A stretch of 64,000 nt of DNA, from positions 1,447,302 to 1,511,301 of the forward strand of contig CAWCDG010000004.1 in NCBI GenBank assembly GCA_963794325.1, read 5' to 3'. Position 1 is the stretch's first letter, and every line of letters begins with the position of its first letter. The DNA is from an uncultured delta proteobacterium. GTDB lineage: Bacteria; Desulfobacterota; Binatia; Binatales; Binataceae. The notes beneath the pieces were generated by a model. It made no database searches, was not told the DNA's origin, and was given only the letters and a program-made list of their open reading frames with translations. Of this stretch, positions 2,382 to 48,799 are shown piece after piece. Made by a program: the position numbers and the translations under genes.

Positions 2382-4643
2382 TCAAGGATGGTCGAAAGCC
2401 ACTATGTCTTCAAGTGCTGGTGAATGTGAAATTGCGTGCGCAGCGAGCCTGCCAGAAATCACGGCCGCTTCGACGCATCCCGCGTCAAGCCCGCAGGTCG
2501 TCCAATCACCCGCTATAGTCAGGTTGTCGTAGGTGTTATCCAATGGCGAGATGCGGTATTTCTGAGTGCCGGGCAGCGAAAGTACGTAACGTTCGGTCGG
2601 GTTCACATTCGCGGTCCAATGTTGAGAGTCAAAACGAGCGTGACTCCCGCGGGAAGATCGACGACCATGTTTTGTCTCTCCAGGAATCATCAGTAGGTCC
2701 CATCTGAATTTGCCGCGCCGACTTACAGCCTTCGGCCAAAGCTGTGCGATGTCATCGTTGAGATAATGAATCGCATTTTTCTGAACCTCATGGCGTCGCC
2801 GCTTCGGGTAGCTAATAGCTGACATCTCTCCAGGCGTTAACGGATCCTTCAGTGCGCTACAGAAGTAAGCTATAGCTTTCGGACTCACCTTCCAACTTTC
2901 TTCGCGGATCAGGTGACTCATATCTGCCCAGGTTTCGAAAGGCTGCACAAACGCCGACAACGCCAGCGGAGGATCCTGCCATCCTAATTGCTCCATATCT
3001 TCGCGAAGCCAGATCTGAAAGGCCTGTGTGTTTACGGTCTTCAGATGCGTTACCATATCGCGCCAGCGCTGATCTCGTTGAATAAGGTCCTGGCACACAT
3101 ACGGAACAGCTCCCAGGCCGACGCCCAGAACGACGAAATCAAAATCGTCGGTCACTCGCAAAGTCTTAGTCGCGGCTTTTGTGCGGTCCCAATGCGACTC
3201 GAAGTCTCGATCATCGCGCTTGAATTTGCTTCCGTCGACCAACTGCGAGTAGTCCGGCTTCGACGGCCAGCAGGGCAGTCCCCCAACATCGATCAATGGC
3301 GAGTATTCCTGGCGGTTCCTGACTTGCGCCTGCACGTCGAACTCGAGTGCTTTGACATAGGGGCGCTCCCCTTCCGCAAGCTCTGCAGGATCGGCCAATC
3401 TTACTTTTTCCAGGCGATGAAAAAATTTGAAAGTTACTCCGCGTTTTTTCAGTACTTCATACATGGGCGCGAAGACTGTATCCCCCATGCCGGCATGCAT
3501 TTTCCAAAAGATCGCGCCGCGCGAGCTGAACAGCATTCGTAGCGCCCCACGAAGTGCAACTCCAGCCCCGTGTCGCGGACGTTGATAGTCTCCGTCTTCG
3601 TAAGCGAAGACGAGATCGTAGGCGCCGCGGATGATAGGTGACTCGAGTGAACGCTCCGACGCACCATTGATTCGGAGCCACTCGCGAAAGTCGTAGTCGT
3701 TGATAGCGTCGAACCCTCGCGGATCCGAAATCAGGCCGAAGCGAAGAATTCCTCGCATCGATGCCATCGCCAAATCCACAGCCTGCCATAGAATCAACAG
3801 TTCAGGATCGTTCTCAACAATTGCTTCGAGTTGACGTCGAGCACTGGCGGCGATTAGTTCGAGGAGTTGCGCGATCCCGTTGTCCGGATAGATAGAACGC
3901 GGTGCAAAGGCCAGCTCGAGCGTTTCGACAGCTTCAATTAGAGCGGTTGTCGTCGCGATCCAGCCCAGCCCCAGAAGACGTGCTATGCGTTTAGGAGGTT
4001 CGTCTGACGGTTCGGCGGTCTTCGAGTTCGACTTATAGGAGTGTCGCGCCTCGGAAGCGTCGCTTTCTGTTCTAGACGAGCTGCGGCTGCTTCGACTCGC
4101 CTGCGCCGCAAGGAGCAGGGTCCGCAAAATGCTGGCCGTGCGGGCGAGATAAGAGGTGACTGTAAAAGGATCGTTCTCGGTGACGGGATCGCCGGGTAGG
4201 CCGTCGCCCGGCGGGAAGTACGACAAGAAATTCCAATAGGTGCCGTTGTTCGATCGCTGGGTCAGCCCGATAAAAGGGGCTGGGGAGAATGCGTCCCGCC
4301 AATCCGCGATTCTGCATTTGCGCCGATCGCGGTTCAATTCTGTGTAACACTCGCGAATCAGCCGAAATGCATTCTCGTAGGAACCCATCCAAAGATGAAG
4401 GCCGTGTTCTTCGATTCGGTTGGCGGGACCGCGGCCCGAAGCGCCCTTGCCGCCAAGACGCCAGCCGAGTTGATAAATTGTTACCTGGTATTTGCCTTTG
4501 TGCTCTGGACGACTCAGTTCGAAGGCGGCCGAAATCGCGGCGCATCCGCCTCCGATGACGGCGACTTTGATCGGCGTCTCTTTGGGCAATTCATTTGTTC
4601 GCACAATCGGATTTCTCGGCAATTGGGTAGCCGAACGAAACAT
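2382..4643 (-). CDS. Large FAD/NAD(P)-binding oxidoreductase (amine-oxidase / phytoene-desaturase superfamily, COG3349-like)
   Basis: 753-aa ORF. N-terminal Rossmann motif KVAVIGGGCAAISAAFEL. C-terminal flavin-binding signature LTIAGDWTTCGLDAGCVEAAVISGRLAA, typical of amine-oxidase-type flavoenzymes. A long Ser/Arg-rich insertion is present. Confidence 0.7.
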   Translation of the reverse strand: MFRSATQLPRNPIVRTNELPKETPIKVAVIGGGCAAISAAFELSRPEHKGKYQVTIYQLGWRLGGKGASGRGPANRIEEHGLHLWMGSYENAFRLIRECYTELNRDRRKCRIADWRDAFSPAPFIGLTQRSNNGTYWNFLSYFPPGDGLPGDPVTENDPFTVTSYLARTASILRTLLLAAQASRSSRSSSRTESDASEARHSYKSNSKTAEPSDEPPKRIARLLGLGWIATTTALIEAVETLELAFAPRSIYPDNGIAQLLELIAASARRQLEAIVENDPELLILWQAVDLAMASMRGILRFGLISDPRGFDAINDYDFREWLRINGASERSLESPIIRGAYDLVFAYEDGDYQRPRHGAGVALRGALRMLFSSRGAIFWKMHAGMGDTVFAPMYEVLKKRGVTFKFFHRLEKVRLADPAELAEGERPYVKALEFDVQAQVRNRQEYSPLIDVGGLPCWPSKPDYSQLVDGSKFKRDDRDFESHWDRTKAATKTLRVTDDFDFVVLGVGLGAVPYVCQDLIQRDQRWRDMVTHLKTVNTQAFQIWLREDMEQLGWQDPPLALSAFVQPFETWADMSHLIREESWKVSPKAIAYFCSALKDPLTPGEMSAISYPKRRRHEVQKNAIHYLNDDIAQLWPKAVSRRGKFRWDLLMIPGETKHGRRSSRGSHARFDSQHWTANVNPTERYVLSLPGTQKYRISPLDNTYDNLTIAGDWTTCGLDAGCVEAAVISGRLAAHAISHSPALEDIVAFDHP

Positions 4644-8617: not shown

Positions 8618-11600
8618 CTACCCTCGTAACTCTTCCATCAGTGCCTTGGCGTCCTTCAGATCCGCTGTGTCGAAGCCCTCGGAGAACCAGTTGTAAATTT
8701 CTGCGAGCATCGATCGCGCGTTGTCGCGCCCGCCTTGCCTCGCCAGCAGGCGCGCGAGACTGGTCGTTGCGCGCAGTTCCCATGATTTGGCGTGCTGCTT
8801 GCGCGCAATTTCGATCGCGTCGCGGAAAGATTGATCCGCTTGCGAAGTGTTCGAAGCACTCTGAGCCAGCAACAATTCGCCCTTCAGGCGACGGAGCTCC
8901 GCTGCATAGTATTGTTGGCCGGTTCTCTCGATGAACTCGAATGACTCGTCGACGATGCGAAGAGCCTCATCGAAACGGCTCAGCCGTCCCAGGGCAGTGG
9001 CGACAAAGGTGAAATAGCGGTCGCTGATATATTCGGAGCCGGCGGCCTTCAACTCTGACATGTGGAGTCTCATGCGCGCGATGCCGCCATCCAGGTCGCC
9101 GGCCAGCGCATCTGCCCATCCTAAATAAATTTCGCTCAGGACGCGGCCTGTAAAATATCCCGATTCGTTCGCTAGTAGCAGCCTCGCAGCTGCCCTCGAT
9201 TTCATCTGTTCAGGTTCGCGACGGAGCTCGTAAATGTAGGTGGCGAATCCGTGGATGTCCGCAATCATTGTCTTTGGCCCGGAACCCGCGATTTCGGTCG
9301 CGATATTCATTCGCTCGAGTGCGCGGTCCGGGTAACCAAGGAACCACAGGTTCCATCCCGACAAGACGCGGTTGTTTTGCCGAGTCCCCGAACGCCACGC
9401 GAATGCCTGGCCTTCAGTCATTTGCTCGGGGCGCTGCGGTGTCAGACCGGTTGCCGGCTTCGCGTTGGAATCCAGCAGCGCCCACGCTCGATCGAGGCCA
9501 AGGGCTGCTTGCTCGAAGTCGCCCGAAACCATCTTCGCGTATGCCAACCAGTTCGCCGCTTCGGCAACAAGATCGGCTCTCCCGTATTCTTCGGCTCGCG
9601 CAACCAGCTCGGTTCCTATCGCTTCGGCCTGGCGCACATTGGGACGGAGTTGTTGAACGAAAAAGATTCCGAAGAGCGCCGCCCAGGTCTTTTGCCGGTT
9701 GATGCCCGACCGCTGGCAAAGCTCCAGCGCGCGCGCCTGCGACTGCTCGACATCGTGCGAGCTGAAACCTTTGCTATCACCCAGCGGCCCGCTGATTTCG
9801 ATCCTGAGGTCCAATTCCAGTTCGGCGCGCCGGTCGTCGTCGGGGAGCTTCTGCAGTTGTTCAAGTCCTTTCTCGAACTGGGCGACCGCTTCGGCATTAG
9901 AGCCCAGGTCGGCGCATTGACGGACCGCGCGCAGACAATATTTCACCGCCTTGGCCGGATTGCCGCTGCGCGCATAATGATGAGCCAGCTTGGCAATGTA
10001 GTCGTCGAGACTGTCGGCATAGGTTGATTCCAACGCCGCGCCGATTCGCTCGTGCAGCAAGCGGCGGCGTTCGTTAAGCACCGAGTGGTAGGCGACGTCA
10101 TGGGTCAGCGCATGCTTGAAGGTGTACTCGAGGTCGCCGACCGAGGGTTGCTCGTAGATGAACTCGGCGAGCTGGAGTTCGGATAGCATCGGTTCCAACT
10201 CCAGTTCCGGCGGCGCGGCTACTTTGCGGATCAGTGCGAATTTGAACTCGGTACCGATGACCGCGAGCGTCTGAAGCAGATCTTTGTGATCCGGCGCGAG
10301 CCGGTCGATGCGCGCTGCGAGAATAGCCTGCACGGTCGGCGGTATCTTCAGCTCGCCCAGCGACTTGGTGAGTTTTACCGTACCGTTGCGCACCAGCGCG
10401 CCCTCATCGAGCAACACCTGCACAGTCTCTTCCATGAAGAACGGGTTGCCCTCGGTTTTTTCAGTAATGAGTTTCTTAAGCGCTGCTAGTTGCGGGCTGT
10501 CACCGAGCAGCGCCGACAGCATCTCGTCGGCGCTTTCCATTCCGAGTGGGTCGAGCCGCAGCTGCGTGTAGTAAGTCTTGTTGCCCCACTCATGGCGGTA
10601 CTCGGGCCGATAGTTGAACAGCAGCAGGATGCGCGCGGTGCCGATTGAGTCGGCGAGTAGGTTCAGAAATCCCTGCGTCTCGCTGTCGATCCAGTGAAGG
10701 TCCTCGAAAATCACGACCAGCGGCTGGTTGAGGCTTTCGCGCAACAGGATGCGCTTGATCGCATCGAGCGAGCGGCGCTTGCGAGTCTGCGCCTCGACCT
10801 CGGCAGCCTGGTTGTTCTCGTCAGTCAAACCGAGCAGCCCATAGAGATACGGAAGTGCGTCCTCCAGCGAGCGATCGAGCGCGAGTACCCGCCCGGTTAC
10901 TTTCTCGCGTCGCGTGCGTTCGTCATCCTCGGGAGTGATCTTGAAATAGCTCCGCAGCAAATCGATCACAGGCAGAAATGCAGACGCCTTGCCGTGCGAG
11001 ACCGAGAACGCCTCCAGCACCATCCAGCCCGATTGCGAGACCGCTTTGAACTCGAAGAACAGGCGCGATTTGCCGACTCCCGCCTCGGCCATCGCCGCGA
11101 CAATCTGCCCGCGTCCAGCCCTGGCCTGATCCGCCGCACGCTTTAGCGATTCCATTTCTGCCTGCCGACCTACGAACTTCGACAAGCCGCGCCCCGCCGA
11201 GCGTTGCAGCCGGGTTCGCAGCGGCCCGAGTCCGATCACCTCGTAAACGTTGACCGGCTCGCTCAAGCCTTTGATTCGGGTCGGTCCAAGCGGCTTGAGC
11301 TGAAAGTACCCTTCGACCATTTTGCGCGTCTGCTCGCTGACCGCGACGGTCCCGGTTCGCGCAAGCGATTGCAGCCGCGAGGCGAGGTTAGTTGTGTGTC
11401 CGATCGGTGTGTACTCAACCTGACCGTCGCCGGTTGCGATCGAGCGGACCACGACTTCGCCGGTGTTTATGCCGACGCGAATCTCGATCGGTGCGCGCCC
11501 TTCGGATTGGAGCCGCGAACCATATCTCAGTAACTCCTCCTGCATCCGCAGCCCGGCATAGAGCGCGCGCTGCGGATGGTCCTCGTGGGCCAGCGGTGCG

Positions 11601-12031
11601 CCGAACATCGCAAAGATGCCGTCGCCGGTCGATTGCACGACGTGGCCATCGTAACGCTGGACCGCAGCGATCATCAGCTTGAGGGCGGGATCGACAATGG
11701 CGCGAGCTTCCTCGGGGTCGAGGTCCTGCTCCAATTCGGTCGAGCCCTTGATATCGGCAAACAACGCGGTGACGGTCTTGCGCTCACCGTCGATAGGCAG
11801 CGGTTCAGCGCTGTTGAGGGTTACGCCAATGATCGGGGGAGTTGAGCTTGACGTTGTCTTCGAAGGCTGCCCGGCTTGCCCGCTCAGAGAAGTCGCACAT
11901 TGCGTGCAGAATTTGGCTTCAGGCGGGTTGTCGAAAGCGCACTTTTGGCATCTGCGCTTGAAGGGAGTTGCACATTGAATGCAAAACTTCGCCCCCTGAG
12001 GATTTTCAGTGGAGCAACTGGCGCAGTGCAT
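8618..12031 (-). CDS. Zinc-ribbon / class III adenylate-guanylate cyclase / P-loop ATPase / TPR signalling protein
   Basis: N-terminal double zinc ribbon (CASCSTENPQGAKFCIQCATPFKRRCQKCAFDNPPEAKFCTQCAT). Cyclase core (TALFADIKGSTEL...QSTGDGIFAMFGAP...RVGINTGEVVV). P-loop AMAEAGVGKSRL. Long helical-repeat C-terminus. I start it at M36 (MHCASC, ATG 12031) because the longer ORF start overlaps the GST gene. Confidence 0.8.
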   Translation of the reverse strand: MHCASCSTENPQGAKFCIQCATPFKRRCQKCAFDNPPEAKFCTQCATSLSGQAGQPSKTTSSSTPPIIGVTLNSAEPLPIDGERKTVTALFADIKGSTELEQDLDPEEARAIVDPALKLMIAAVQRYDGHVVQSTGDGIFAMFGAPLAHEDHPQRALYAGLRMQEELLRYGSRLQSEGRAPIEIRVGINTGEVVVRSIATGDGQVEYTPIGHTTNLASRLQSLARTGTVAVSEQTRKMVEGYFQLKPLGPTRIKGLSEPVNVYEVIGLGPLRTRLQRSAGRGLSKFVGRQAEMESLKRAADQARAGRGQIVAAMAEAGVGKSRLFFEFKAVSQSGWMVLEAFSVSHGKASAFLPVIDLLRSYFKITPEDDERTRREKVTGRVLALDRSLEDALPYLYGLLGLTDENNQAAEVEAQTRKRRSLDAIKRILLRESLNQPLVVIFEDLHWIDSETQGFLNLLADSIGTARILLLFNYRPEYRHEWGNKTYYTQLRLDPLGMESADEMLSALLGDSPQLAALKKLITEKTEGNPFFMEETVQVLLDEGALVRNGTVKLTKSLGELKIPPTVQAILAARIDRLAPDHKDLLQTLAVIGTEFKFALIRKVAAPPELELEPMLSELQLAEFIYEQPSVGDLEYTFKHALTHDVAYHSVLNERRRLLHERIGAALESTYADSLDDYIAKLAHHYARSGNPAKAVKYCLRAVRQCADLGSNAEAVAQFEKGLEQLQKLPDDDRRAELELDLRIEISGPLGDSKGFSSHDVEQSQARALELCQRSGINRQKTWAALFGIFFVQQLRPNVRQAEAIGTELVARAEEYGRADLVAEAANWLAYAKMVSGDFEQAALGLDRAWALLDSNAKPATGLTPQRPEQMTEGQAFAWRSGTRQNNRVLSGWNLWFLGYPDRALERMNIATEIAGSGPKTMIADIHGFATYIYELRREPEQMKSRAAARLLLANESGYFTGRVLSEIYLGWADALAGDLDGGIARMRLHMSELKAAGSEYISDRYFTFVATALGRLSRFDEALRIVDESFEFIERTGQQYYAAELRRLKGELLLAQSASNTSQADQSFRDAIEIARKQHAKSWELRATTSLARLLARQGGRDNARSMLAEIYNWFSEGFDTADLKDAKALMEELRG

Positions 12032-12068
12032 ACTGGGTCGATCAGTTTTGGCGGTTGTTCGATAGCTG

Positions 12069-12770
12069 CTACGGCTTGACGACCTCGCCGCGATGATCCT
12101 TGTACATCCGGTCGCGCCAGGCGAACACCTCGGCAAACGTTGGATCGTCGCCGAGCTTGTCGAGGTAGACGAACCGCAGTTCCGGCGTAAGGACGAAAAA
12201 CTCCTGCGGAGCCGCCTTGAAAAGCATCAACATCGCCGCGGTGGTTATGTCGGCGCGAGTGAATGTATTACCGACCAGGTATTCGCGTCCGCTCAGGGTA
12301 TCCTTAAGACTCGTCAGGATCCTCGTGACCGTGAGCCTGCTCTGCTCTTCCTCGAATGGTGAGTATCCATACTTTTCCGCGAAGTACTTTCCGCTCTTTT
12401 GTGCTTCAGGGTCATCGATGCGGAGCAGGCGTCCGGTGATCATCACGCGGCCATGAGGCCCCAGCGCGTTAAGCGCGACCTCTTCCCATAGCGTCGCCGT
12501 CGCGCGATCTTTCGCGGATTTGGGCAACAGCGCCGGCTCCGGTCGCGTTCCTTCGAGCCAGTCCAAAATCGCGCTCGAATCCGGAATCACCTTACCGTCG
12601 GTGACCAACACCGGCACCATGGTTTGGCCGGTCAATTTTTTAATTTTTTCTTCATCGACTCCCGGTTCGTAGTTTTCCTTCTCGTACGCCAGGCCTTTGA
12701 ACTTCAACGCCCAACGGACGCGCTCGGACCAGGGCGACCCGTACATTGTGATTAGCTTCGGCGTGCTCAT
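12069..12770 (-). CDS. Glutathione S-transferase family protein
   Basis: MSTPKLITMYGSPWSERVRWALKFKGLAYEKE...VPVLVTDGKVIPDSSAILDWLE is a GST N-terminal thioredoxin-like domain. I chose the start at the internal ATG 12770; the extension to 12914 looks non-coding. Confidence 0.75.
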   Translation of the reverse strand: MSTPKLITMYGSPWSERVRWALKFKGLAYEKENYEPGVDEEKIKKLTGQTMVPVLVTDGKVIPDSSAILDWLEGTRPEPALLPKSAKDRATATLWEEVALNALGPHGRVMITGRLLRIDDPEAQKSGKYFAEKYGYSPFEEEQSRLTVTRILTSLKDTLSGREYLVGNTFTRADITTAAMLMLFKAAPQEFFVLTPELRFVYLDKLGDDPTFAEVFAWRDRMYKDHRGEVVKP

Positions 12771-12953
12771 GAGCAGTCCCCTTTGAGTTTGGTCAGCAAT
12801 GAAACTTTGACTTGCTGTTGGAGAGCATACCGCGTCGTGGACCGTGGCCCTAACAGGCGGAGCGATTTTAGCGCTTCGGAGCGGCTCTTCGGAAGCGCGG
12901 AAGATTGGGAGCATCCGCGAGCGTAGCGCTGCACGCAGATGCTCCCTGGCGAA

Positions 12954-13493
12954 TCACTTCACGTCTACTTCCATGCGCATCCAAGGATGGAGGCAGCACT
13001 GGAACAGATGTTTTCCCTTTGACAGGCCAGTGATATCGAGATGGCTGCCCTGAAGAATTCGGGTCTTGGCCACCGCGACGCTGCCAAAGCCGCCACTGCA
13101 TTCCGGAATGACGGTCGTCGCGGCGCCGGGGTTAAGCGGCGGCACGAATCCGTTACCGAATGCCTTCACCTCGGTAAAGGTGTGAACCTCACCGCCTTGG
13201 TTGACTACGGAAACGACGGTGCCCTTATTGATCGTTAGCGTATCGGGTTCGTAATCCCAGCCCGGATCGGGGGTTCCAGCCTCCGCCCCTGCAACTAGAT
13301 TGCCCAGCATGGTGCTGAATCCAGACGCAATGTTCTTGCATTCGTCAGCGCCCAGTGCAGCGTTGAACGTGGCCGGATCGCATTCGTCCAATGCCACAAC
13401 CTGGGCGAGCCCGGGCGGCTGCGCACTCGCGTGTCTCGCGCTGGCTAGAATCACGCACCCAGCCAGCAGACTTAGTATCGTTATCTTTTTCAT
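12954..13493 (-). CDS. Secreted cupredoxin (amicyanin/pseudoazurin-like type-1 copper protein) with an N-terminal Cys-containing extension
   Basis: Signal peptide MKKITILSLLAGCVILASARHASA. Candidate Cu ligands are His in GGEVHTFTE and C-x2-H-x2-M in FQCCLHPWMRMEV (compare amicyanin CTPHPFM). SD AAGGAGGAAG lies upstream. Confidence 0.7.
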   Translation of the reverse strand: MKKITILSLLAGCVILASARHASAQPPGLAQVVALDECDPATFNAALGADECKNIASGFSTMLGNLVAGAEAGTPDPGWDYEPDTLTINKGTVVSVVNQGGEVHTFTEVKAFGNGFVPPLNPGAATTVIPECSGGFGSVAVAKTRILQGSHLDITGLSKGKHLFQCCLHPWMRMEVDVK

Positions 13494-13576
13494 TCCTGCT
13501 TCCTCCTTTTGAAGCGAATCATTGGTTATCGGCGCCCATCTTCAGGCATCCTGAGTCGCTAGCCAATGGACCGAGG

Positions 13577-13605
13577 CTGAACTTCTCCTGAACTCTCGCT
13601 GAACT
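13577..13605. promoter_or_regulatory. Three CTGAACT direct repeats at exact 11-bp phasing (candidate winged-helix operator)
   Basis: CTGAACT at 13577, 13588 and 13599, in the 174-bp divergent region between the cupredoxin (start 13493) and the winged-helix regulator (start 13668). Confidence 0.55.
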
Positions 13606-13667
13606 CGCTGACACGTCGCGGCTATGCGCTTGCCCGCGAACGCGAGTAGAATCGGCGACCGGAACCA

Positions 13668-16577
13668 ATGCCCGAAGATCTCGTCCAGTTTGAGGATTTT
13701 GTACTGAACCGCGGCGCCTATGAGCTGCGCCGGGGTGATGTCGTCGTTCCGCTCCAACGGATTCCGCTCGAGCTGCTATGCCTGCTGGTCGAACGCCGCG
13801 GACAGCTGGTTACGCGCGAGGAAATTCTCGAGCGCGTCTGGGGCAAGGGCGTCTTCGTCGATAGCGAGAACAGCATCAACACCGCGGTACGGAAAGTCCG
13901 GCGGGCGTTGAGCGACGATCCCGACGCCCCGCGCTTCGTCGTTACGGTGCCAGCCCGGGGTTATCGATTCGTCGCGGAGCTTCGCGCACCGAAGATAAGT
14001 AGAGCCGATCAATTTCGAGCTCGGCCGCCCAGTACGATGGTGGGACGTGAGCGCGAGCTGTCTTCGTTGCTGAATAGGCTCGACGATGCGGCTGCCCGGC
14101 GGGGGCGCCTGGTCCTGATTTCGGGTGAACCCGGGGTCGGCAAGACACGGATGGCGGACGAGGTTGCGGCCGCGGCTGACGCAAAGCGAATGGCGATACT
14201 GGTCGGACATTGCTCCGAGCACGACGAAGCCGTCGCGTATCTGCCGTTCGTGGAAATCCTGGAAGACTTTATCGATCGCGAATCAAACCCGGATGTGCTT
14301 CGCGCTGCTCTTGGCGAGCAGGCACCGGAGCTGGCGCGCTTGATCCCAAAACTCAAGAACATCCTGCCCGAGCTTCCGCCGCCGCTCGATTTGCCGCCGA
14401 CTCAGGCGCGGCGCCATTTGTTCAATTGCTTTTTCGACTTCGTTGCCCGAATCGCTTCACAACGACCGACGTTGATGATCCTCGAAGACCTTCACTGGGC
14501 CGACGATTCGACGCTGTCGCTGCTCGACCATCTGACGCAGCGGCTGGCCGATCTGCCTCTGATTATCATCGGAACCTATCGCGACGCCGAGGTCAATGTC
14601 ACTCACGAGCTGGCAAAGACGCTGGAAGATCTACTCCGGGGGCGGTTTGCAACTCGCATCAGGCTCAAAGGCCTGCCACGCGATGCAGTGGCGGCGATGC
14701 TGAACAGTCTGAGCGGAAAATCGCCGCCCGCCTCCGTGGTTGGCGAGATTTTCGCCGAGACTGAAGGCAATCCTTTCTTCGTCGAGGAACTGTTCCGCCA
14801 TCTCGAGGAGGAGAATCGGCTGTACGATTCGGCGGGACGGTTTCGCTCCACGCTCGAGATTGGAGAACTGGACGCGCCGCCAACTGTGCGGCTGGTCGTC
14901 GGGCGGCGGCTGGCGCGGCTCAGCGACCTGACACAGAAGATGCTCGCGACGGCGGCGGTGATCGGACGCTTATTCAGTTTCGAAATTCTTCATGCTTCGA
15001 TCGAAGCCGATGCGGATTCGACGCTGAAGCGCGTCGAGGAAGCCGAAAAGGCCGGCCTGGTTTTCTCCTTCGCCGACAGTCCAAAGGCGCGGTTTGAGTT
15101 CTCCCACGAGCTTATTCGCCAATCCGTCCTCGCCGGCTTGTCGGCGGCGCGACGCCAGCGGCTGCATCTCGAGGTGGCCGAAGGGATCGAGCGAACCTGT
15201 GCCGCTGGGTCGGGATCCACATTTGCCGGCAGCCTCGACGACCACATCACTGAACTGGCGCATCACTACGCGCATAGCGCCAACACCTCGCAGGCGGTGA
15301 AATATCTCCATCTGGCGGGCGAGCTGGCGGCGGCGTGCGGCGCGATGGTCGAGGCGGAGCGTCACTACATGACCGCGCTCAAGCTGCTTGACGAATTGCC
15401 CGAAACGCCGGAACGGGATCGGCGCGAACTTGCCTTGCAGAGCCTGCTCGGTTCGGCCGTTGCAGCCGTTAAGGGAATTGGCGCGCATGAAAGAGAGCGC
15501 AGCCTCTTGCGGGCTCGCGATCTGTCACAACGCCTCGGAGAGCAGTCTCACGTGTTCCCAGTGCTCTGGCAGCTCTTCCATTTCCATGCACAGCGCGGTG
15601 AACTGCGAACCGCTCGGAAATACGCTGAACAAGCATTGGCAGTGGCCGAGAGTCAGTGCGACGTGGTGATGCTCGCGGGTGCCCGAACCGCCCTCGGCGT
15701 CTGTCTCTTTTACATCGGCGACTTTGCTGCCTGCCGAATGCAGTTCGAGCTCGCGCTCGCACAGGACATACCTTTGCAGAAACGCTGGTATCTCGACGAA
15801 CGCGGGTTCGACACGCTGGCAGGAGCGCTAAGCGCGCTCGCTGAGGGAATTCTGGGTTATCCGGACCGATGCTGCGTGGGACTTGGCGACGTTGTGAAGC
15901 GCGCGCGGACGCAGTCGAGCCTCCCTGACCTGGCGTTCGCGTTGGTAACTTGTGGCCGGGGGCATCTTCTGGCCGGTAGTCCAAGCAGCGCCCAATCTTT
16001 GGCGGAAGAAGCGATCACGCTGTCCGAGAGCCACGGGCTCGTCGAACGCGCTGCATTGGGTAAATATGTTCGAGGGGTCGCTCTCACCAGGCAAGGAGAG
16101 CTCAAGGAGGGTATCGCCTGCATTCTCCAGGGACTCTCGGACTATAGCGCGACCGGTGGCAGGCTCGGTCAGTCAGAGTTCTACAGCGCGCTTGCCGCAG
16201 CTTTCGGCAAGGCAGGTCGAACCCAAGAGGGTTTGGAAGCGGTGGACCTCGGACTGGCGATGGGCCGCGATGGTGGCGAGAGTTACTATCGAGGCGAACT
16301 CTATCGCATAAGAGGCGAACTGATTCAGCTCGATGATCCGGCCCATCCTGACGAGGTCGAGCGATTGTTTCGCACGGCGATCGATGATGCGTCCAGCCGG
16401 CAAGCCCGTTCATTTGAACTGCGCGCCACGACCAGCCTCGCGCGATTGCTCGCCAAGCAAGGTCATCGCGACAAAGCGCGCACGATGCTTGCCGAAATTT
16501 ACAACTGGGTCACCGAGGGCTTCGATACCCCCGATCTGAAGGATGCCAAGACCCTGCTCGACGAGCTTAGCGAATAG
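13668..16577 (+). CDS. OmpR/PhoB-type winged-helix DNA-binding domain / P-loop ATPase / TPR regulator (STAND/AfsR-like architecture)
   Basis: 969 aa. N-terminal trans_reg_C-like domain (FEDFVLNRGAYELRRGDVVVPLQRIPLELLCLLVERRGQLVTREEILERVWG...VPARGYRFV). P-loop ISGEPGVGKTRM. The C-terminus matches the cyclase protein (ELRATTSLARLLAKQG.RD.AR.MLAEIYNW..EGFDT.DLKDAK.L..EL). Confidence 0.8.
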   Translation: MPEDLVQFEDFVLNRGAYELRRGDVVVPLQRIPLELLCLLVERRGQLVTREEILERVWGKGVFVDSENSINTAVRKVRRALSDDPDAPRFVVTVPARGYRFVAELRAPKISRADQFRARPPSTMVGRERELSSLLNRLDDAAARRGRLVLISGEPGVGKTRMADEVAAAADAKRMAILVGHCSEHDEAVAYLPFVEILEDFIDRESNPDVLRAALGEQAPELARLIPKLKNILPELPPPLDLPPTQARRHLFNCFFDFVARIASQRPTLMILEDLHWADDSTLSLLDHLTQRLADLPLIIIGTYRDAEVNVTHELAKTLEDLLRGRFATRIRLKGLPRDAVAAMLNSLSGKSPPASVVGEIFAETEGNPFFVEELFRHLEEENRLYDSAGRFRSTLEIGELDAPPTVRLVVGRRLARLSDLTQKMLATAAVIGRLFSFEILHASIEADADSTLKRVEEAEKAGLVFSFADSPKARFEFSHELIRQSVLAGLSAARRQRLHLEVAEGIERTCAAGSGSTFAGSLDDHITELAHHYAHSANTSQAVKYLHLAGELAAACGAMVEAERHYMTALKLLDELPETPERDRRELALQSLLGSAVAAVKGIGAHERERSLLRARDLSQRLGEQSHVFPVLWQLFHFHAQRGELRTARKYAEQALAVAESQCDVVMLAGARTALGVCLFYIGDFAACRMQFELALAQDIPLQKRWYLDERGFDTLAGALSALAEGILGYPDRCCVGLGDVVKRARTQSSLPDLAFALVTCGRGHLLAGSPSSAQSLAEEAITLSESHGLVERAALGKYVRGVALTRQGELKEGIACILQGLSDYSATGGRLGQSEFYSALAAAFGKAGRTQEGLEAVDLGLAMGRDGGESYYRGELYRIRGELIQLDDPAHPDEVERLFRTAIDDASSRQARSFELRATTSLARLLAKQGHRDKARTMLAEIYNWVTEGFDTPDLKDAKTLLDELSE

Positions 16578-46124: not shown

Positions 46125-46676
46125 CTACTTCACGTCAACTTCCATGCGCATCCAGGGATGGATGCAGCACTGGAATAGATGCTTGCCCTTCGACAGGCCA
46201 GCGATATTGAGCGTGCTGCCTTGCAGGATCCGGGTCCTGGCCACTGCGACGTTGCCAAAGCCGCCACTGCATTCAGGAATAACGCTGGTAGCGCTGCCGG
46301 GGTTGAGCGGCGGCAGGAATCCGTTACCGAAGGCTTTCACCTCCGTAAAGGTGTGGGGCTCGCCGCCTTGGTCGACCACGGAAACGACGGTCCCCTCCTT
46401 GATCGCGAGTGTGTCCGGTTCGAAGTCCCAACCAGGATCGGGCATTCCAGCCTCCGCCCCTGCAAGTAGATTGGCCAGCATGGTGCTATATCCAAGCGTG
46501 ATGTTCTTGCAAAAGTCAGGGCCCAGTGCAGCATTGAACGTGGTCGGATCGCATTCGTCCAATGCCACAACTTGGGCGATGTCTGCCGAGTTTCCATTTC
46601 CTTGCGCCCTCACGCGAGGCGCGCCGGCCAGGATCACCCACCCAGCCAGAAGAATCAGCGTTGCTGCCTTTTTCAT
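46125..46676 (-). CDS. Secreted cupredoxin, paralogue of 12954..13493
   Basis: 183 aa, collinear with the first copy and with the same ligand motifs (GGEPHTFTE; FQCCIHPWMRMEVDVK). The last 20 residues differ at one position. Confidence 0.7.
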   Translation of the reverse strand: MKKAATLILLAGWVILAGAPRVRAQGNGNSADIAQVVALDECDPTTFNAALGPDFCKNITLGYSTMLANLLAGAEAGMPDPGWDFEPDTLAIKEGTVVSVVDQGGEPHTFTEVKAFGNGFLPPLNPGSATSVIPECSGGFGNVAVARTRILQGSTLNIAGLSKGKHLFQCCIHPWMRMEVDVK

Positions 46677-46760
46677 TACTCGTTCCTCCTTTTGAAGCGA
46701 ACCATTCGTTTATCGCCGCCCGTGTTCAGGCAGCCTGAGTCGCTAGCCAATGGACCGAGG

Positions 46761-46798
46761 CTGAACTTCTCTTGAACTCTGTCTGAACTCGTTGAACT
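46761..46798. promoter_or_regulatory. Four (C/T)TGAACT direct repeats upstream of cupredoxin-2
   Basis: CTGAACT 46761, TTGAACT 46772, CTGAACT 46783, TTGAACT 46792 (spacings 11, 11, 9). Preceded by a 38-nt block (46734-46771) identical to 13550-13587. Confidence 0.55.
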
Positions 46799-46897
46799 GA
46801 GTCGTTCCTGACACTGAGGCGTGACGGATCAGGGCACGACGTGCCGTTATCGGGCACGAATCAGGGGGCGGCGCGAATTGGCGCGCGAGAGAGGAAT

Positions 46898-48799
46898 CTA
46901 CAACTGCCAGGAGACTGGATGCGTGGGGTCGGGATCGTAGGCGCAAAAGTTACCGGTCTTGATGGAAGCGGCGAGATAGCGGCCCAGCGAAGCGTCGCCG
47001 GTGCGGATCCTGATGATCGCTGCCTTGATCGCCTTAGTCACCATCAGCCGCGCCCGCTCGCTGTGAGAAGCGGCCTTCCGGACTCGTCCGCCCAACCCTA
47101 CCGCGGCGCCAATCTGATCGCGAAGCGCCTCCAGCTCGGAGCGGAGGTGCGATGCCCGCGATGCGTCGTTGAGCTCCGCAGCTTCCGCCAGTTCCGCGCG
47201 CAGCTCGCCGATGCGGGCGCGGTATTGCCCGCAGGCCTTGGCATCGAGCAACGCGCCGGCGTCGCCGAGGTTTGCGGCGGTGCCGACCCCATCTATCGAT
47301 GCGCGTCGTTTACCGTTTGGTGTCGCAGCGGCGGCAAGTTCGTAGGCCAGAACCTGACGGCCGGGATTCGCCAACAGGTAGGCGATGTAGTGAAAGCCCT
47401 TAGCGTGCTTGAGGCGGATCACCTTGCCTCGCGATGAAACCGTCCAATATTCGCCTTCTCGCCGGAATACCGCTCGGGTCGAGGCGGTAACTTGCTGAGA
47501 TCCGTTCCTTGCTCCCCCTGCACTATTGCCGCCGTTGGCGCGGACGAGGTCGCCTTCCACACCGTCAATCCAACTCTGGTCCGCACCGTGTCCGCGATAG
47601 ATCTCGATTGCCTTGTCGAGCTTTTCGATCGCCGCCCGACGATTGGCGCCTGCCAGCAGCGCGTGGCCCCAACTCTGGAATGTCCGCGCCTCCTGCCACA
47701 CCATCCCATGGCGTCGAAAGGTTTCGGCTGCCTTAACGAATTGTGCTTCGGACTCGCTCCACGATCCTCGTGACGCAGCGACCACTGCTTCAGCCCGCGC
47801 GACCAGCCCGGCCAGCCCTTCCTCGCCGGAAGCGAGAATCTCGCGGCATCTTTCGAGTTCCGCGATAGCGTCGTCCGCACTTGCCGATTCGTCGCCGGCC
47901 ATATCGCCGGAGACGGCGTCGGCCAGAGTTTGTTCGGGCCGTGGGCTATGAGGCTCCCCGGTTATGAATTCCTCGGTCTGGTCGAGAAGGAAGTCCAGCA
48001 GGTCCCGATCCAGAGCTTGAAGCGCGTGGTCGTCGCCAGGCAGCTCGACATATTTGGCTCCCGGGATATTACTGGCCAGGTACCGTCCGTTTTCGACCCG
48101 AACAGTCGCATCGCCCACGCGATGCAAGATAAGGGTCGGGACCCGTATCGACGGCAGAAGATCGCCGACGTCTATCTCATAGTTCGCCCGCATCAAGGCG
48201 AGGATCGCGCTCGGACTGGCAACGGCTCGCTCGAGCCGGCCCATCATCTGGAGATACGCTCTATCTTGCGCGCGGCTCGGCGCATTGACGCCGACCAGGA
48301 TGCCTTCACCCCAATGGTCTTCGAGCATCTTAAGGAATTTTTCATAGTCCTCGCGACTGATGGGCTTCGGGGGCGACTTTATCGACGCATAGGTACCGTA
48401 CAGGACAAGGCTCGAGACGCGCTCGGGATACATAGCGGCGAACTTGAGACACATCTGGCCGCCTTCCGACCAGCCATAAACCGTCGCGCGCTTCGACCCG
48501 ACCGCATCCATCACCGCCTGCATGTCGCTGACGCGCTCTTCCAGTGTCTGGCTGGCGTCCCGATCCGAGAGTCCCTGGCCACGCTTGTCGAAGATGATTA
48601 CCCGCGCGAAGGAGGCCAGTCGTCTCAGCATGTACCCGTAAGCAGGCATCTCCCAGAAGAGCTCGACGTGCGAGACGGTGCCCGGCACAAGTATGATGTC
48701 GCGCGGGCCGTCGCCGAAGACGCGGTACGCGAGGTGAACGTCGCCGTTTTTGGCGTACCTGGTTTCAGCTTCCATGAGAACCGAGCCTCCGCCAGGCAT
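46898..48799 (-). CDS. Alpha/beta hydrolase domain fused to a helical-repeat region and a conserved C-terminal domain of unknown (possibly regulatory) function
   Basis: N-terminus: YAKNGDVHLAYRVFGDGPRDIILVPG...IIFDKRGQGLSD...YGWSEGGQM (GxSxG). C-terminus: FRREGEYWTVSSRGKVIRLKHAKGFHYIAYLLANPGRQVLAYEL...SERARLMVTKAIKAAI. Confidence 0.6.
   Translation of the reverse strand: MPGGGSVLMEAETRYAKNGDVHLAYRVFGDGPRDIILVPGTVSHVELFWEMPAYGYMLRRLASFARVIIFDKRGQGLSDRDASQTLEERVSDMQAVMDAVGSKRATVYGWSEGGQMCLKFAAMYPERVSSLVLYGTYASIKSPPKPISREDYEKFLKMLEDHWGEGILVGVNAPSRAQDRAYLQMMGRLERAVASPSAILALMRANYEIDVGDLLPSIRVPTLILHRVGDATVRVENGRYLASNIPGAKYVELPGDDHALQALDRDLLDFLLDQTEEFITGEPHSPRPEQTLADAVSGDMAGDESASADDAIAELERCREILASGEEGLAGLVARAEAVVAASRGSWSESEAQFVKAAETFRRHGMVWQEARTFQSWGHALLAGANRRAAIEKLDKAIEIYRGHGADQSWIDGVEGDLVRANGGNSAGGARNGSQQVTASTRAVFRREGEYWTVSSRGKVIRLKHAKGFHYIAYLLANPGRQVLAYELAAAATPNGKRRASIDGVGTAANLGDAGALLDAKACGQYRARIGELRAELAEAAELNDASRASHLRSELEALRDQIGAAVGLGGRVRKAASHSERARLMVTKAIKAAIIRIRTGDASLGRYLAASIKTGNFCAYDPDPTHPVSWQL

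What the first reader, a model, noticed from the sequence alone, without database searches (positions are those of the whole stretch)
46125..46800. Second cupredoxin copy retains the same leader and repeat array 33 kb away: a possible mini-regulon
Seen:
- The 183-aa paralogue is collinear with the first copy.
- The upstream ~125 nt are also conserved, including a 38-nt identical block (46734-46771 = 13550-13587) and four (C/T)TGAACT repeats (spacing 11, 11, 9).
- Here the upstream neighbour is not a wHTH gene but the 3' end of a hydrolase-TPR gene.

Inference: the duplication included the cis-regulatory region, so one regulator (13668..16577) may control both loci. The non-coding conservation also hints at a functional 5' leader.
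Basis: partly seen in the sequence, partly recalled or inferred. Interest (0 to 1): 0.65.

Follow-up and report, generated by a model that had tools for sequence, protein, structure and literature searches.

The report
Shared activator-site promoter on two cupredoxin genes
Two copper-protein genes 33 kb apart in an uncultured soil bacterium (Candidatus Binatus) carry the same promoter with three or four evenly spaced 7-bp repeats, most likely docking sites for the single winged-helix/ATPase regulator encoded beside the first copy; this is an ordinary kind of gene switch in an unstudied regulator family.

Summary
The two cupredoxin genes are 78% identical in protein. Synonymous divergence is substantial (dS about 0.47; 67% identity at fourfold sites). 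The roughly 118 nt upstream are 88% identical, with a 38-nt perfect block and AGTTCAR heptamers spaced 11, 11 and 9 bp.

The conserved stretch is mostly promoter DNA, not an RNA leader:
- The heptamers are centred near -49, -60, -71 and -80.
- A TTGGCT -35 box lies exactly 10 nt after the proximal heptamer.
- A 17-nt spacer and a -10-like hexamer follow. This geometry recurs in 62 distinct related promoters.
- The inferred 5' UTR is only about 38 nt. It has no Rfam match and no unusual fold.

The triple array occurs only at these two sites in the genome, which encodes one regulator of this DNA-binding type. Across Binatus genomes and soil metagenomes the array lies 63 nt from the divergent regulator gene in nearly all loci. 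Most positional orthologues of locus 2 lack it. One distant contig has the same hydrolase-array-cupredoxin junction.

A two-promoter regulon is therefore well supported by comparison but unproven. Copy 2 alone carries a T-to-C change at the key -10 position. This is a new member of a known kind, of modest interest.

The parts
46125..46676 (-). Cupredoxin paralogue 2 (183 aa, signal peptide, predicted type-1 copper site H108 / C170 / H173 / M176)
   Evidence: ORF. 78% aa identity to copy 1, dN 0.13, dS 0.47. The ligand residues are invariant in 28 homologues. Weak profile hits to plastocyanin and to the C-terminal cupredoxin domain of a Cu-nitrite reductase that shares C-x-x-H-P-W-M. Public names are 'cupredoxin domain-containing protein' and 'plastocyanin'.
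46677..46715 (-). Inferred short 5' UTR of copy 2 (about 39 nt), with Shine-Dalgarno AGGAGG at 46685-46690
   Evidence: Position inferred from the -10 hexamer. No Rfam match. Fold z-score -1.65. The GAATGRTTCGCTTCAAAAGGAGG segment also precedes cupredoxin genes that lack the array.
46722..46727 (-). -10-like hexamer GAACAC of copy 2 (deviant: C at position 6)
   Evidence: Lies exactly 17 nt after TTGGCT. In 62 distinct array promoters this hexamer has A2 in 57, A5 in 54 and T6 in 53; copy 2 is the only one with C6. The base is confirmed by independent contigs.
46745..46750 (-). -35-like hexamer TTGGCT of copy 2
   Evidence: TTGGCN lies at a fixed 10 nt after the proximal heptamer in 51 of 62 promoters, and TTGGNN in 60. 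Information content 1.42 bits/position.
46761..46798 (-). Heptamer array of copy 2: AGTTCAG, AGTTCAA, AGTTCAG, AGTTCAA, starting at 46761, 46772, 46783 and 46792 (spacing 11, 11, 9). Inferred centres are -49, -60, -71 and -80.
   Evidence: Heptamers carry 1.74-1.83 bits/position, against 0.95 between them and 0.52 in the flanks, in 20 homology-anchored loci.
46799..46807 (-). Distal edge of the transplanted module. Similarity to regulator-type loci stops here, and similarity to hydrolase-type loci (L027, L019, L066) starts at about 46808.
   Evidence: Sliding-window identities and three-way alignment.
13494..13531 (-). Inferred 5' UTR of copy 1 (about 38 nt), with Shine-Dalgarno at 13502-13507
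13538..13566 (-). Core promoter of copy 1: -10 GAAGAT (13538-13543), 17-nt spacer, -35 TTGGCT (13561-13566)
13577..13614 (-). Heptamer array of copy 1: AGTTCAG x3 (starting at 13577, 13588, 13599) plus a degenerate GTGTCAG (13608)
12954..13493 (-). Cupredoxin paralogue 1 (179 aa)
13668..16577 (+). Candidate regulator: OmpR-type winged helix (aa 27-101), AAA_16/STAND ATPase (aa 124-301, Walker A GEPGVGKT) and TPR. Transcribed divergently from copy 1. A conserved TAGAAT lies at 13647-13652.
   Evidence: Pfam Trans_reg_C 1.4e-17, AAA_16 2.3e-30, TPR_12 4e-9. Only one such wHTH in the genome; the next best are 40% and 32% identical.
46898..48799 (-). Alpha/beta-hydrolase gene upstream of copy 2 (context only, not part of the module)
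   Evidence: Hydrolase-cupredoxin adjacency is conserved in L014, L018, L019, L027 and L066.

Best explanation
Both cupredoxin genes are driven by the same activator-dependent, sigma-70-type promoter module.

- **Module layout.** Three well-conserved AGTTCAG heptamers lie one helical turn (11 bp) apart, with a weaker fourth. They end 10 nt upstream of a TTGGCT -35 box, followed by a 17-nt spacer and a weak -10 (GAAGAT in copy 1, GAACAC in copy 2).
- **Proposed binding (inferred).** The heptamers are the tandem binding sites of the OmpR-type winged-helix domain of the 969-aa wHTH-STAND ATPase-TPR protein at 13668-16577.
- **Proposed activation (inferred).** When its TPR/ATPase part senses an unknown signal and oligomerises, several protomers line up head-to-tail on one face of the DNA from about -46 to -83. 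They recruit RNA polymerase in a class-I-like manner, as OmpR/PhoB do.
- **Regulon (inferred).** The genome has one such regulator and exactly two such arrays. The regulon therefore consists of cupredoxin 1 (probably with the downstream GST-like and cyclase-ATPase-TPR genes) and cupredoxin 2.

**Shown:** the sequence anatomy, its uniqueness in the genome, its evolutionary conservation, and its linkage to the regulator family.

**Inferred:** binding, the direction of regulation, the transcription start site and the signal.
For: 1. **Selective conservation.** In 20 loci found by protein homology, heptamers carry 1.74-1.83 bits/position. The linkers carry 0.95, the 17-nt promoter spacer 0.62 and the flanks 0.52. 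Between the window's two loci the module is 88% identical, against 67% at fourfold sites.
2. **Fixed geometry in 62 distinct promoters.** TTGGNN lies 10 nt after the proximal heptamer. Exactly 17 nt later comes a hexamer with A2 in 57/62, A5 in 54/62 and T6 in 53/62, although the spacer sequence varies freely.
3. **Linkage to the regulator.** Of 44 metagenome contigs with the array, 38 have the divergent regulator gene about 63 nt away, 5 are cut at the contig end, and 1 is hydrolase-type. The same holds in 13 genome contigs and in relatives. All 11 array-positive relatives (strict pattern) have the regulator, and none of the 42 genomes without the regulator has the array.
4. **Matched variation.** Paralogous regulators with 58-74% wHTH identity sit beside their own heptamers in the same 3 x 11-bp geometry: CTTCAG (L056), NNNTCAG (L057), CTACA/ATGCA (L012, L013, L061). 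The start of the recognition helix differs accordingly, SE(N/T)S versus (T/I)DNA.
5. **One regulator, two arrays.** In the own genome there are exactly two arrays and one regulator of this type.
6. **Orphan arrays are retained.** L066 has hydrolase-array-cupredoxin with the same junction as the window, although its hydrolase is only 62% identical. G007 keeps an array beside a 33-aa regulator remnant while an intact regulator with its own array lies 190 kb away.
7. **Both genes look functional.** They are under purifying selection (dN/dS about 0.28). Relatives are transcribed in soil metatranscriptomes, seen over coding regions only.
Against: - No binding, transcription-start or expression data exist for this organism. 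The metatranscriptome contigs do not reach the promoter.
- The promoter hexamers are weak. TTGGCT/GAAGAT match 7 of 12 consensus positions, and the generic promoter scan reports nothing.
- Copy 2 has GAACAC, the only one of 62 promoters with C at the critical last position. It also has G-to-A changes in two heptamers. It could be weaker or decaying.
- Array and regulator are physically adjacent almost everywhere, so their co-occurrence is partly simple linkage.
- The assembly is only 85% complete, so further arrays or regulators may be unseen.
- Gene conversion between the paralogues could inflate the similarity within this genome. The coding tree mixes locus types and the coding sequence is a mosaic.
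Confidence: 0.65

Rival explanations
1. The similarity is a historical by-product. A recombination or gene-conversion event copied a roughly 100-nt promoter piece from a regulator-type locus into locus 2. There it is non-functional or decaying, and copy 2 is expressed from the older hydrolase-side promoter region.
For: - Four positional orthologues (L027, L019, L018, L014) have no module.
- The coding tree mixes locus types and the coding sequence is a mosaic, so recombination between paralogues is frequent.
- Copy 2 has a unique T-to-C at the -10 and two G-to-A heptamer changes.
- A conserved hydrolase-side element (46832-46857) remains upstream.
Against: - The differences between the two modules lie mainly in the linkers and the promoter spacer, not in the GTTCA cores or the -35 block.
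- A distant contig (L066; hydrolase 62% identical, cupredoxin about 65%) keeps intact heptamers, TTGGCT, the 17-nt spacing and GAAGAT at the same junction, while the linkers have diverged.
- Module identity exceeds neutral (fourfold-site) identity (p = 3e-4).
Confidence: 0.17
2. The array is an operator, but the regulator represses rather than activates, or acts mainly on its own divergent promoter. The cupredoxin promoters would then be constitutive unless occupied.
For: - In locus 1 the distal heptamer ends about 10 nt from the position expected for the -35 of the regulator's own promoter (conserved TAGAAT at 13647-13652).
- Nothing in the sequence fixes the sign of regulation.
Against: - The sites lie wholly upstream of the -35 (-46 to -83), and both hexamers are weak. 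This is the usual layout of activator-dependent promoters of OmpR/PhoB-type proteins (established knowledge; geometry).
- Locus 2 and L066 keep the array where there is no divergent regulator gene to autoregulate.
Confidence: 0.1
3. The conserved non-coding stretch acts as an RNA leader (riboswitch, attenuator or sRNA target).
For: - About 118 nt of non-coding conservation.
- A small hairpin can pair GCUUC with the Shine-Dalgarno region in both copies.
Against: - No Rfam family at gathering threshold over the whole window, nor at E<=1 over the copy-2 region 46640-46900.
- Fold z-scores are -1.04 and +0.98 for the full stretch, and -1.65 and -1.17 for the UTR.
- Across orthologues the part downstream of the -10 varies in length and sequence. 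Conservation peaks in 11-bp-phased heptamers and in two hexamers at 17-bp spacing, which is a DNA signature, not an RNA one.
Confidence: 0.04

Closest known systems
OmpR/PhoB-family operators (pho boxes; OmpR F1-F3/C1-C3 sites)
   Same: - OmpR-type winged-helix DNA-binding domain (Pfam Trans_reg_C; NCBIfam PhoB, OmpR and MtrA hits over aa 3-104).
- Tandem direct repeats with a conserved 7-bp core in an 11-bp unit, lying on one DNA face at or just upstream of a weak -35.
   Different: - No receiver domain, so the protein is not a two-component response regulator.
- The output domain is N-terminal and fused to a STAND ATPase and TPR.
- There are three to four units rather than two, ending 10 nt upstream of the -35 rather than replacing it.
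Large SARP regulators such as Streptomyces AfsR (SARP + NOD/NB-ARC + TPR)
   Same: - N-terminal OmpR-type DNA-binding domain followed by a STAND-type ATPase and TPR.
- 11-bp-phased direct repeats at weak promoters (PMC10936776).
- A weak NCBIfam AfsR hit over the TPR part.
   Different: - No BTAD domain was detected.
- SARP boxes overlap the -35 and spacer, with the 3' repeat 8 bp from the -10 (PMC10936776). Here the best-supported reading puts the repeats upstream of a recognisable -35.
- The phylum (Binatota) and the targets (secreted proteins, not antibiotic clusters) differ.
MalT / other STAND transcription activators
   Same: - Signal-dependent, ATP-dependent oligomerisation of a STAND-plus-repeat sensor is the expected way to load several DNA-binding domains on repeated sites. 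This rests on established knowledge and was not tested here.
   Different: - MalT carries a C-terminal LuxR-type HTH and irregularly spaced MalT boxes.
- No sequence relationship was shown beyond the AAA_16 class.
Amicyanin/plastocyanin-type cupredoxins (the regulated genes)
   Same: - Signal peptide.
- His...Cys-x2-His-x2-Met ligand pattern with C-x-x-H-P-x-M.
- Weak profile matches to plastocyanin and to a Cu-NiR cupredoxin domain.
   Different: - An extra N-terminal region of about 60 aa with conserved cysteines (DECDP...C).
- Below Pfam's threshold: Cupredoxin_1 at 16.5 bits against a cut-off of 27, for copy 1 only.
- No mau genes lie beside either copy within the stretches examined.

Membership tests
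OmpR/PhoB-type winged-helix DNA-binding domain (Pfam Trans_reg_C) | Significant match to the Trans_reg_C profile | tested here: met
   Regulator aa 27-101, E 1.4e-17, 64 bits against a cut-off of 26.2.
Two-component response regulator (OmpR/PhoB family proper) | N-terminal receiver (Response_reg) domain with a phospho-acceptor Asp | tested here: not met
   No receiver domain among the Pfam hits. The wHTH is at the extreme N-terminus and is followed by AAA_16 and TPR.
SARP (Streptomyces antibiotic regulatory protein) | Bacterial transcriptional activation domain (BTAD) directly after the wHTH | tested here: not met
   No BTAD hit at E<=0.01. The AfsR model matches only aa 743-884, at 43.9 bits against a cut-off of 1430.
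SARP (Streptomyces antibiotic regulatory protein) | Direct repeats at 11/22-bp phasing, with the 3' repeat 8 bp from the -10 | tested here: inconclusive
   The 11-bp phasing is met. CATTGG does begin 8 bp after the proximal heptamer. However, the better-supported promoter reading makes TTGGCT the -35, with a -10 17 nt further on. No start site has been mapped.
STAND / AAA_16 signal-transducing ATPase | P-loop NTPase domain with Walker A and B, followed by a repeat sensor domain | tested here: met
   AAA_16 2.3e-30 over aa 124-301. GEPGVGKT and ILEDLHWAD are read directly in the sequence. TPR_12 4e-9.
Transcription-factor operator (direct-repeat array) | Sequence-specific binding by the cognate factor | not testable with these tools
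   Only comparative evidence is available: conservation, phasing, linkage and matched variation.
Sigma-70-type promoter | -35 and -10 hexamers 16-18 bp apart, upstream of a mapped start site | tested here: inconclusive
   The 17-bp spacing and the A2/A5/T6 pattern are conserved in 62 promoters. The hexamers nevertheless fail the generic consensus scan, and no start site is mapped.
Cupredoxin (type-1 copper protein) | Cupredoxin fold with His, Cys, His, Met ligands | tested here: inconclusive
   The ligand pattern is invariant in 28 homologues. Profile hits to plastocyanin and Cu-NiR cupredoxin are weak, at E 0.02-0.09. Pfam is below threshold. The AF2 model is too poor to search (pLDDT 47).
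Known RNA leader / riboswitch (Rfam) | Match to any Rfam covariance model | tested here: not met
   No hit at gathering threshold in the window, nor at E<=1 in 46640-46900.

The most novel reading that the evidence does not exclude
The unit 'heptamer array + promoter + short UTR (+ first ~19 codons of a signal peptide)' may behave as a portable regulatory cassette in Binatus. The slot just downstream of this promoter is filled in different genomes by a cupredoxin, an unknown 195-aa secreted protein, a coiled-coil/Gly-Ser-rich secreted protein followed by a cupredoxin, a carboxylesterase carrying the very same signal peptide, or directly by the GST-cyclase operon. The cassette has also been planted at a second chromosomal site, downstream of the hydrolase gene. 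The STAND sensor's regulon would then be rewired lineage by lineage through homologous recombination within the cassette, recruiting new secreted proteins to one signal.
Probability: 0.3. Interest if true: 0.5.

Novelty: new member of a known kind. Interest (0 to 1): 0.33.

Why it matters
- It provides a concrete, testable operator, promoter and two-gene regulon for a large but uncharacterised regulator architecture (OmpR-type winged helix fused to a STAND ATPase and TPR, without the SARP BTAD domain). The host is an uncultured soil phylum (Binatota).
- The heptamer consensus, its geometry and the matched operator variants of paralogous regulators could guide DAP-seq or EMSA work and regulon prediction in metagenomes.
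- It does not change any general concept of bacterial gene regulation.

Tried and rejected
- **RNA-leader reading: rejected.** No Rfam hit and no fold signal. The conservation pattern is that of DNA sites.
- **Sigma-54 promoter in TTGGCTAGCGACT, or in the hydrolase-side TGGCAC-like palindrome:** considered by eye and rejected, because the GG-to-GC spacing is wrong.
- **SARP-style reading (proximal repeat 8 bp from a CATTGG -10):** considered. It is less well supported than TTGGCN-17-nAnnAT, because the latter's spacing and A2/T6 pattern persist while the intervening sequence changes.
- **Mapping the start site from metatranscriptomes:** the contigs of eight RNA runs cover only coding parts of relatives and stop at or before the start codon. 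Nothing was learned about the start site.
- **Generic promoter/terminator scan:** nothing at either locus.
- **AlphaFold2 model of copy 2 from 28 close homologues:** pLDDT 47, unusable, so no fold search was run.
- **Deciding from a coding-sequence tree whether the whole gene or only the promoter was transplanted into locus 2:** unresolved. L010 joins the copy-1 clade with only 90/86 support, locus types are intermixed and the coding sequence is a mosaic.
- **More arrays or a second regulator in the genome:** none found, but the assembly is only 85% complete.
Full report
**1. The observation**

The window encodes two collinear secreted proteins on the minus strand: 12954-13493 (179 aa) and 46125-46676 (183 aa).
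- They share 142 of 183 aligned residues.
- Nei-Gojobori dN is 0.13 and dS is 0.47. Third-position identity is 72%, and identity at 81 fourfold-degenerate sites is 67%.
- Both are under purifying selection (dN/dS about 0.28).

A pairwise DNA alignment shows that similarity continues for about 118-125 nt upstream of the start codons at 88% identity. It ends abruptly beyond the fourth repeat and right after the stop codons.

The 38-nt block 46734-46771 = 13550-13587 is exactly identical and cannot be extended.

The repeats, read on the gene strand, are as follows:
- Copy 2: AGTTCAG, AGTTCAA, AGTTCAG, AGTTCAA, starting at 46761, 46772, 46783 and 46792 (spacing 11, 11, 9).
- Copy 1: AGTTCAG x3, starting at 13577, 13588 and 13599, then GTGTCAG at 13608.

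Independent short-read contigs reproduce the copy-2 promoter and its junction with the upstream flank without a single difference. They collapse the 38-nt block into a double-depth unitig.

The upstream gene of copy 2 is an alpha/beta hydrolase. I could not confirm a TPR part.

**2. Is it more than chance, and more than recency?**

GTTCAR-N5-GTTCAR-N5-GTTCAR occurs only at these two sites in the 4.45-Mb assembly. Four of the five two-unit matches in the genome also lie in these two loci. A reversed control pattern has no hit in 61 genomes.

The module is more conserved than synonymous sites: 104/118 against 54/81, Fisher p = 3e-4. Recombination complicates this pairwise argument (section 5). 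The stronger evidence is comparative.

**3. Organism and family context**

Homologues and contig titles place the window in Candidatus Binatus (Binatota), an uncultured soil lineage. Its phylum is known from genomics only (PMC8262859).

The protein family is large: 2,618 hits, named 'cupredoxin domain-containing protein' or 'plastocyanin' by their sources. His108, Cys170, His173 and Met176 are invariant. The C-x-x-H-P-W-M loop aligns with the cupredoxin domain of a copper nitrite reductase and, more weakly, with plastocyanin. Pfam is below threshold and the AF2 model was poor. 'Cupredoxin' is therefore likely but not proven by fold.

**4. What the conserved stretch is**

I collected related loci in four ways:
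- by protein homology to the cupredoxin;
- by homology to the regulator's winged helix;
- by the DNA pattern in species genomes;
- by the DNA pattern in metagenomes.

Sixty-two distinct promoters share one geometry:
- three heptamers, one per 11 bp;
- then 10 nt;
- then TTGGNN in 60 of 62 (TTGGCN in 51);
- then exactly 17 nt of freely varying sequence;
- then a hexamer with A at position 2 (57/62), A at position 5 (54/62) and T at position 6 (53/62). Typical forms are GAACAT, AATGAT, GAAGAT, TACGAT and TAACAT.

In 20 loci anchored by protein homology, information content is as follows:

| Segment | Bits per position |
|---|---|
| Heptamers | 1.74-1.83 |
| -35 hexamer | 1.42 |
| Linkers between heptamers | 0.95 |
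| -10 hexamer | 0.83 |
| 17-nt promoter spacer | 0.62 |
| Flanks | 0.52 |

This is the signature of protein-binding DNA: activator sites centred near -49, -60, -71 (and -80), followed by a weak sigma-70-type promoter.

The inferred 5' UTR is only about 38-39 nt and carries an AGGAGG Shine-Dalgarno. There is no Rfam match over the window or the copy-2 stretch and no unusual folding energy at either locus. Across orthologues, the part downstream of the -10 varies in length and sequence. The 'functional leader' idea is therefore not supported.

A SARP-like reading remains possible until a start site is mapped, but fits the conservation pattern less well. In it, the proximal repeat would lie 8 bp from a CATTGG -10 (the rule cited in PMC10936776).

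**5. Who binds it**

The gene divergent from copy 1 (13668-16577) encodes an N-terminal OmpR-type winged helix, an AAA_16/STAND ATPase with intact Walker motifs, and TPR repeats. It has no receiver domain and no BTAD.

Evidence linking this protein to the array:
- Its winged helix has no close paralogue in the genome; the next best are 40% and 32% identical.
- In 38 of 44 metagenome contigs the array lies about 63 nt from the start of such a regulator gene. Five contigs are cut at the edge, and one has the hydrolase instead.
- The same adjacency holds in the species genomes.
- Among 61 relatives, all 11 genomes with a strict array match have the regulator, and none of the 42 genomes without the regulator has the array.
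- Regulators whose strict array match failed still have recognisable AGTTCAG arrays (L045-L051).

More divergent paralogous regulators (58-74% identity in the wHTH) sit beside their own heptamers in the same 3 x 11-bp, 10-nt, 17-nt geometry:
- CTTCAG in L056;
- NNNTCAG in L057;
- CTACA/ATGCA in L012, L013 and L061.

The first residues of the recognition helix change in step, SE(N/T)S versus (T/I)DNA. This matched variation is the best available argument that the adjacent protein reads the heptamers. It remains inference.

**6. History of locus 2**

The ancestral arrangement seems to be regulator <array> GST-like gene, cyclase-ATPase-TPR gene. Many genomes have exactly that (L045, L047-L051, L054-L056). 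In the window, the cupredoxin sits between the array and the GST gene.

Other genomes have different genes in the slot just after the promoter:
- an unknown 195-aa secreted protein (L035, L041, L046, L073, L085);
- a 348-aa coiled-coil/Gly-Ser-rich secreted protein followed by the cupredoxin (L036, L040, L064, L105);
- a carboxylesterase that shares the array, promoter, UTR and first 19 codons with the window's copy 2 at about 92% nucleotide identity (L042).

Hydrolase-cupredoxin loci in other genomes (L027, L019, L018, L014) lack the roughly 100-nt module. Downstream of the hydrolase stop, L010, L027 and L019 share a conserved GTGCCCGATAACGGCACGTCGTGCCC element. In L027 and L019 the sequence then joins directly to the short UTR.

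The window's locus 2 matches L027 at 80-95% on both outer sides. It matches regulator-type loci at 88-98% only from about -119 to -40.

One metagenome contig (L066) has the module at the same junction, although its hydrolase is only 62% identical. There the GTTCAG cores, CTCGGTCCATTGGCTA, the 17-nt spacing and GAAGAT are intact while the linkers have diverged. The orphan array has therefore been kept in two distant lineages, which argues for function in trans.

A third case is genome G007. An array with a 33-aa regulator remnant lies 190 kb from an intact regulator that has its own array.

Whether the coding sequence of copy 2 came along with the module is unresolved, because the coding tree and sliding windows show a mosaic.

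**7. Caveats specific to copy 2**

- Its -10 hexamer GAACAC is the only one of 62 with C at the last position, normally the most critical T. Two of its heptamers end in A rather than G. The base call is confirmed. Copy 2 may be a weaker or decaying target.
- No binding, start-site or expression data exist. Soil metatranscriptome contigs only show that relatives of the coding regions are transcribed.
- The assembly is 85% complete.

**8. Verdict**

The mini-regulon interpretation is well supported by comparative evidence but not demonstrated. The leader interpretation should be replaced by 'activator sites plus core promoter'.

The system works like an OmpR/PhoB-type tandem-repeat activator site. 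In domain logic it resembles large SARPs such as AfsR. It is a member of neither family, because it lacks both the receiver domain and the BTAD.

I re-derived it independently and extended it to locus 2.

It is a new member of a known kind of regulatory arrangement in an unstudied regulator family, and of modest interest.

Noticed in passing
L042 (JBAWCX010000141.1) 3073-3245, against window 46620-46798: A secreted type-B carboxylesterase in another Binatus MAG shares the array, promoter, UTR and first 19 codons (signal peptide MKKAVTLILLAGWVILAGA) with the window's cupredoxin copy 2 at about 92% nucleotide identity. It then diverges abruptly. This looks like a promoter/signal-peptide cassette swap.
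   Followed up: partly
window 46832-46857 (minus strand GTGCCCGATAACGGCACGTCGTGCCC): A partly palindromic non-coding element just downstream of the hydrolase stop. It is conserved in hydrolase-cupredoxin loci of other genomes (L027, L019, L066) whose hydrolases are only 62-85% identical. It could be the native promoter or operator of the array-less cupredoxin, or the hydrolase terminator.
   Followed up: no
window 13620-13652 (+ strand), and all regulator-type loci: Two conserved blocks lie in the regulator's own upstream region: GCGGCTATRCGCTC, and AGTAGAATC with a perfect TAGAAT only 15 nt before the ATG. This suggests a nearly leaderless regulator mRNA and possible autoregulation from the distal heptamer.
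   Followed up: no
window 8618-12914 (minus strand), and L045-L056: In many Binatus genomes the array drives the GST-like gene and the Zn-ribbon/class III cyclase-ATPase-TPR gene directly. In the window the cupredoxin is inserted between the promoter and the GST gene (183-nt gap 12771-12953, taking the GST start at Met49). The array's primary, ancestral target may therefore be the GST-cyclase operon.
   Followed up: partly
L012 (G007:C1 about 717901-721449), L013, L061: A sister regulator subtype (69% wHTH identity) has heptamers of the CTACA/ATGCA type in the same 11-bp geometry. It shares a near-identical TCTCCATTGTTGGC-17 nt-GAAGAT core promoter.
   Followed up: partly
L026/L013 (G026:C13 10711-18130) and L040: Tandem duplications of the whole regulator-array-cupredoxin unit. 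In G026 one of the two regulator copies appears frameshifted.
   Followed up: no
L035, L041, L046, L073, L085: An unannotated secreted protein of about 195 aa (MKKIGRF..., with conserved Cys) occupies the slot behind the same array in several genomes. A proline-iminopeptidase-like hydrolase gene follows it in the three loci examined (L035, L041, L046).
   Followed up: no
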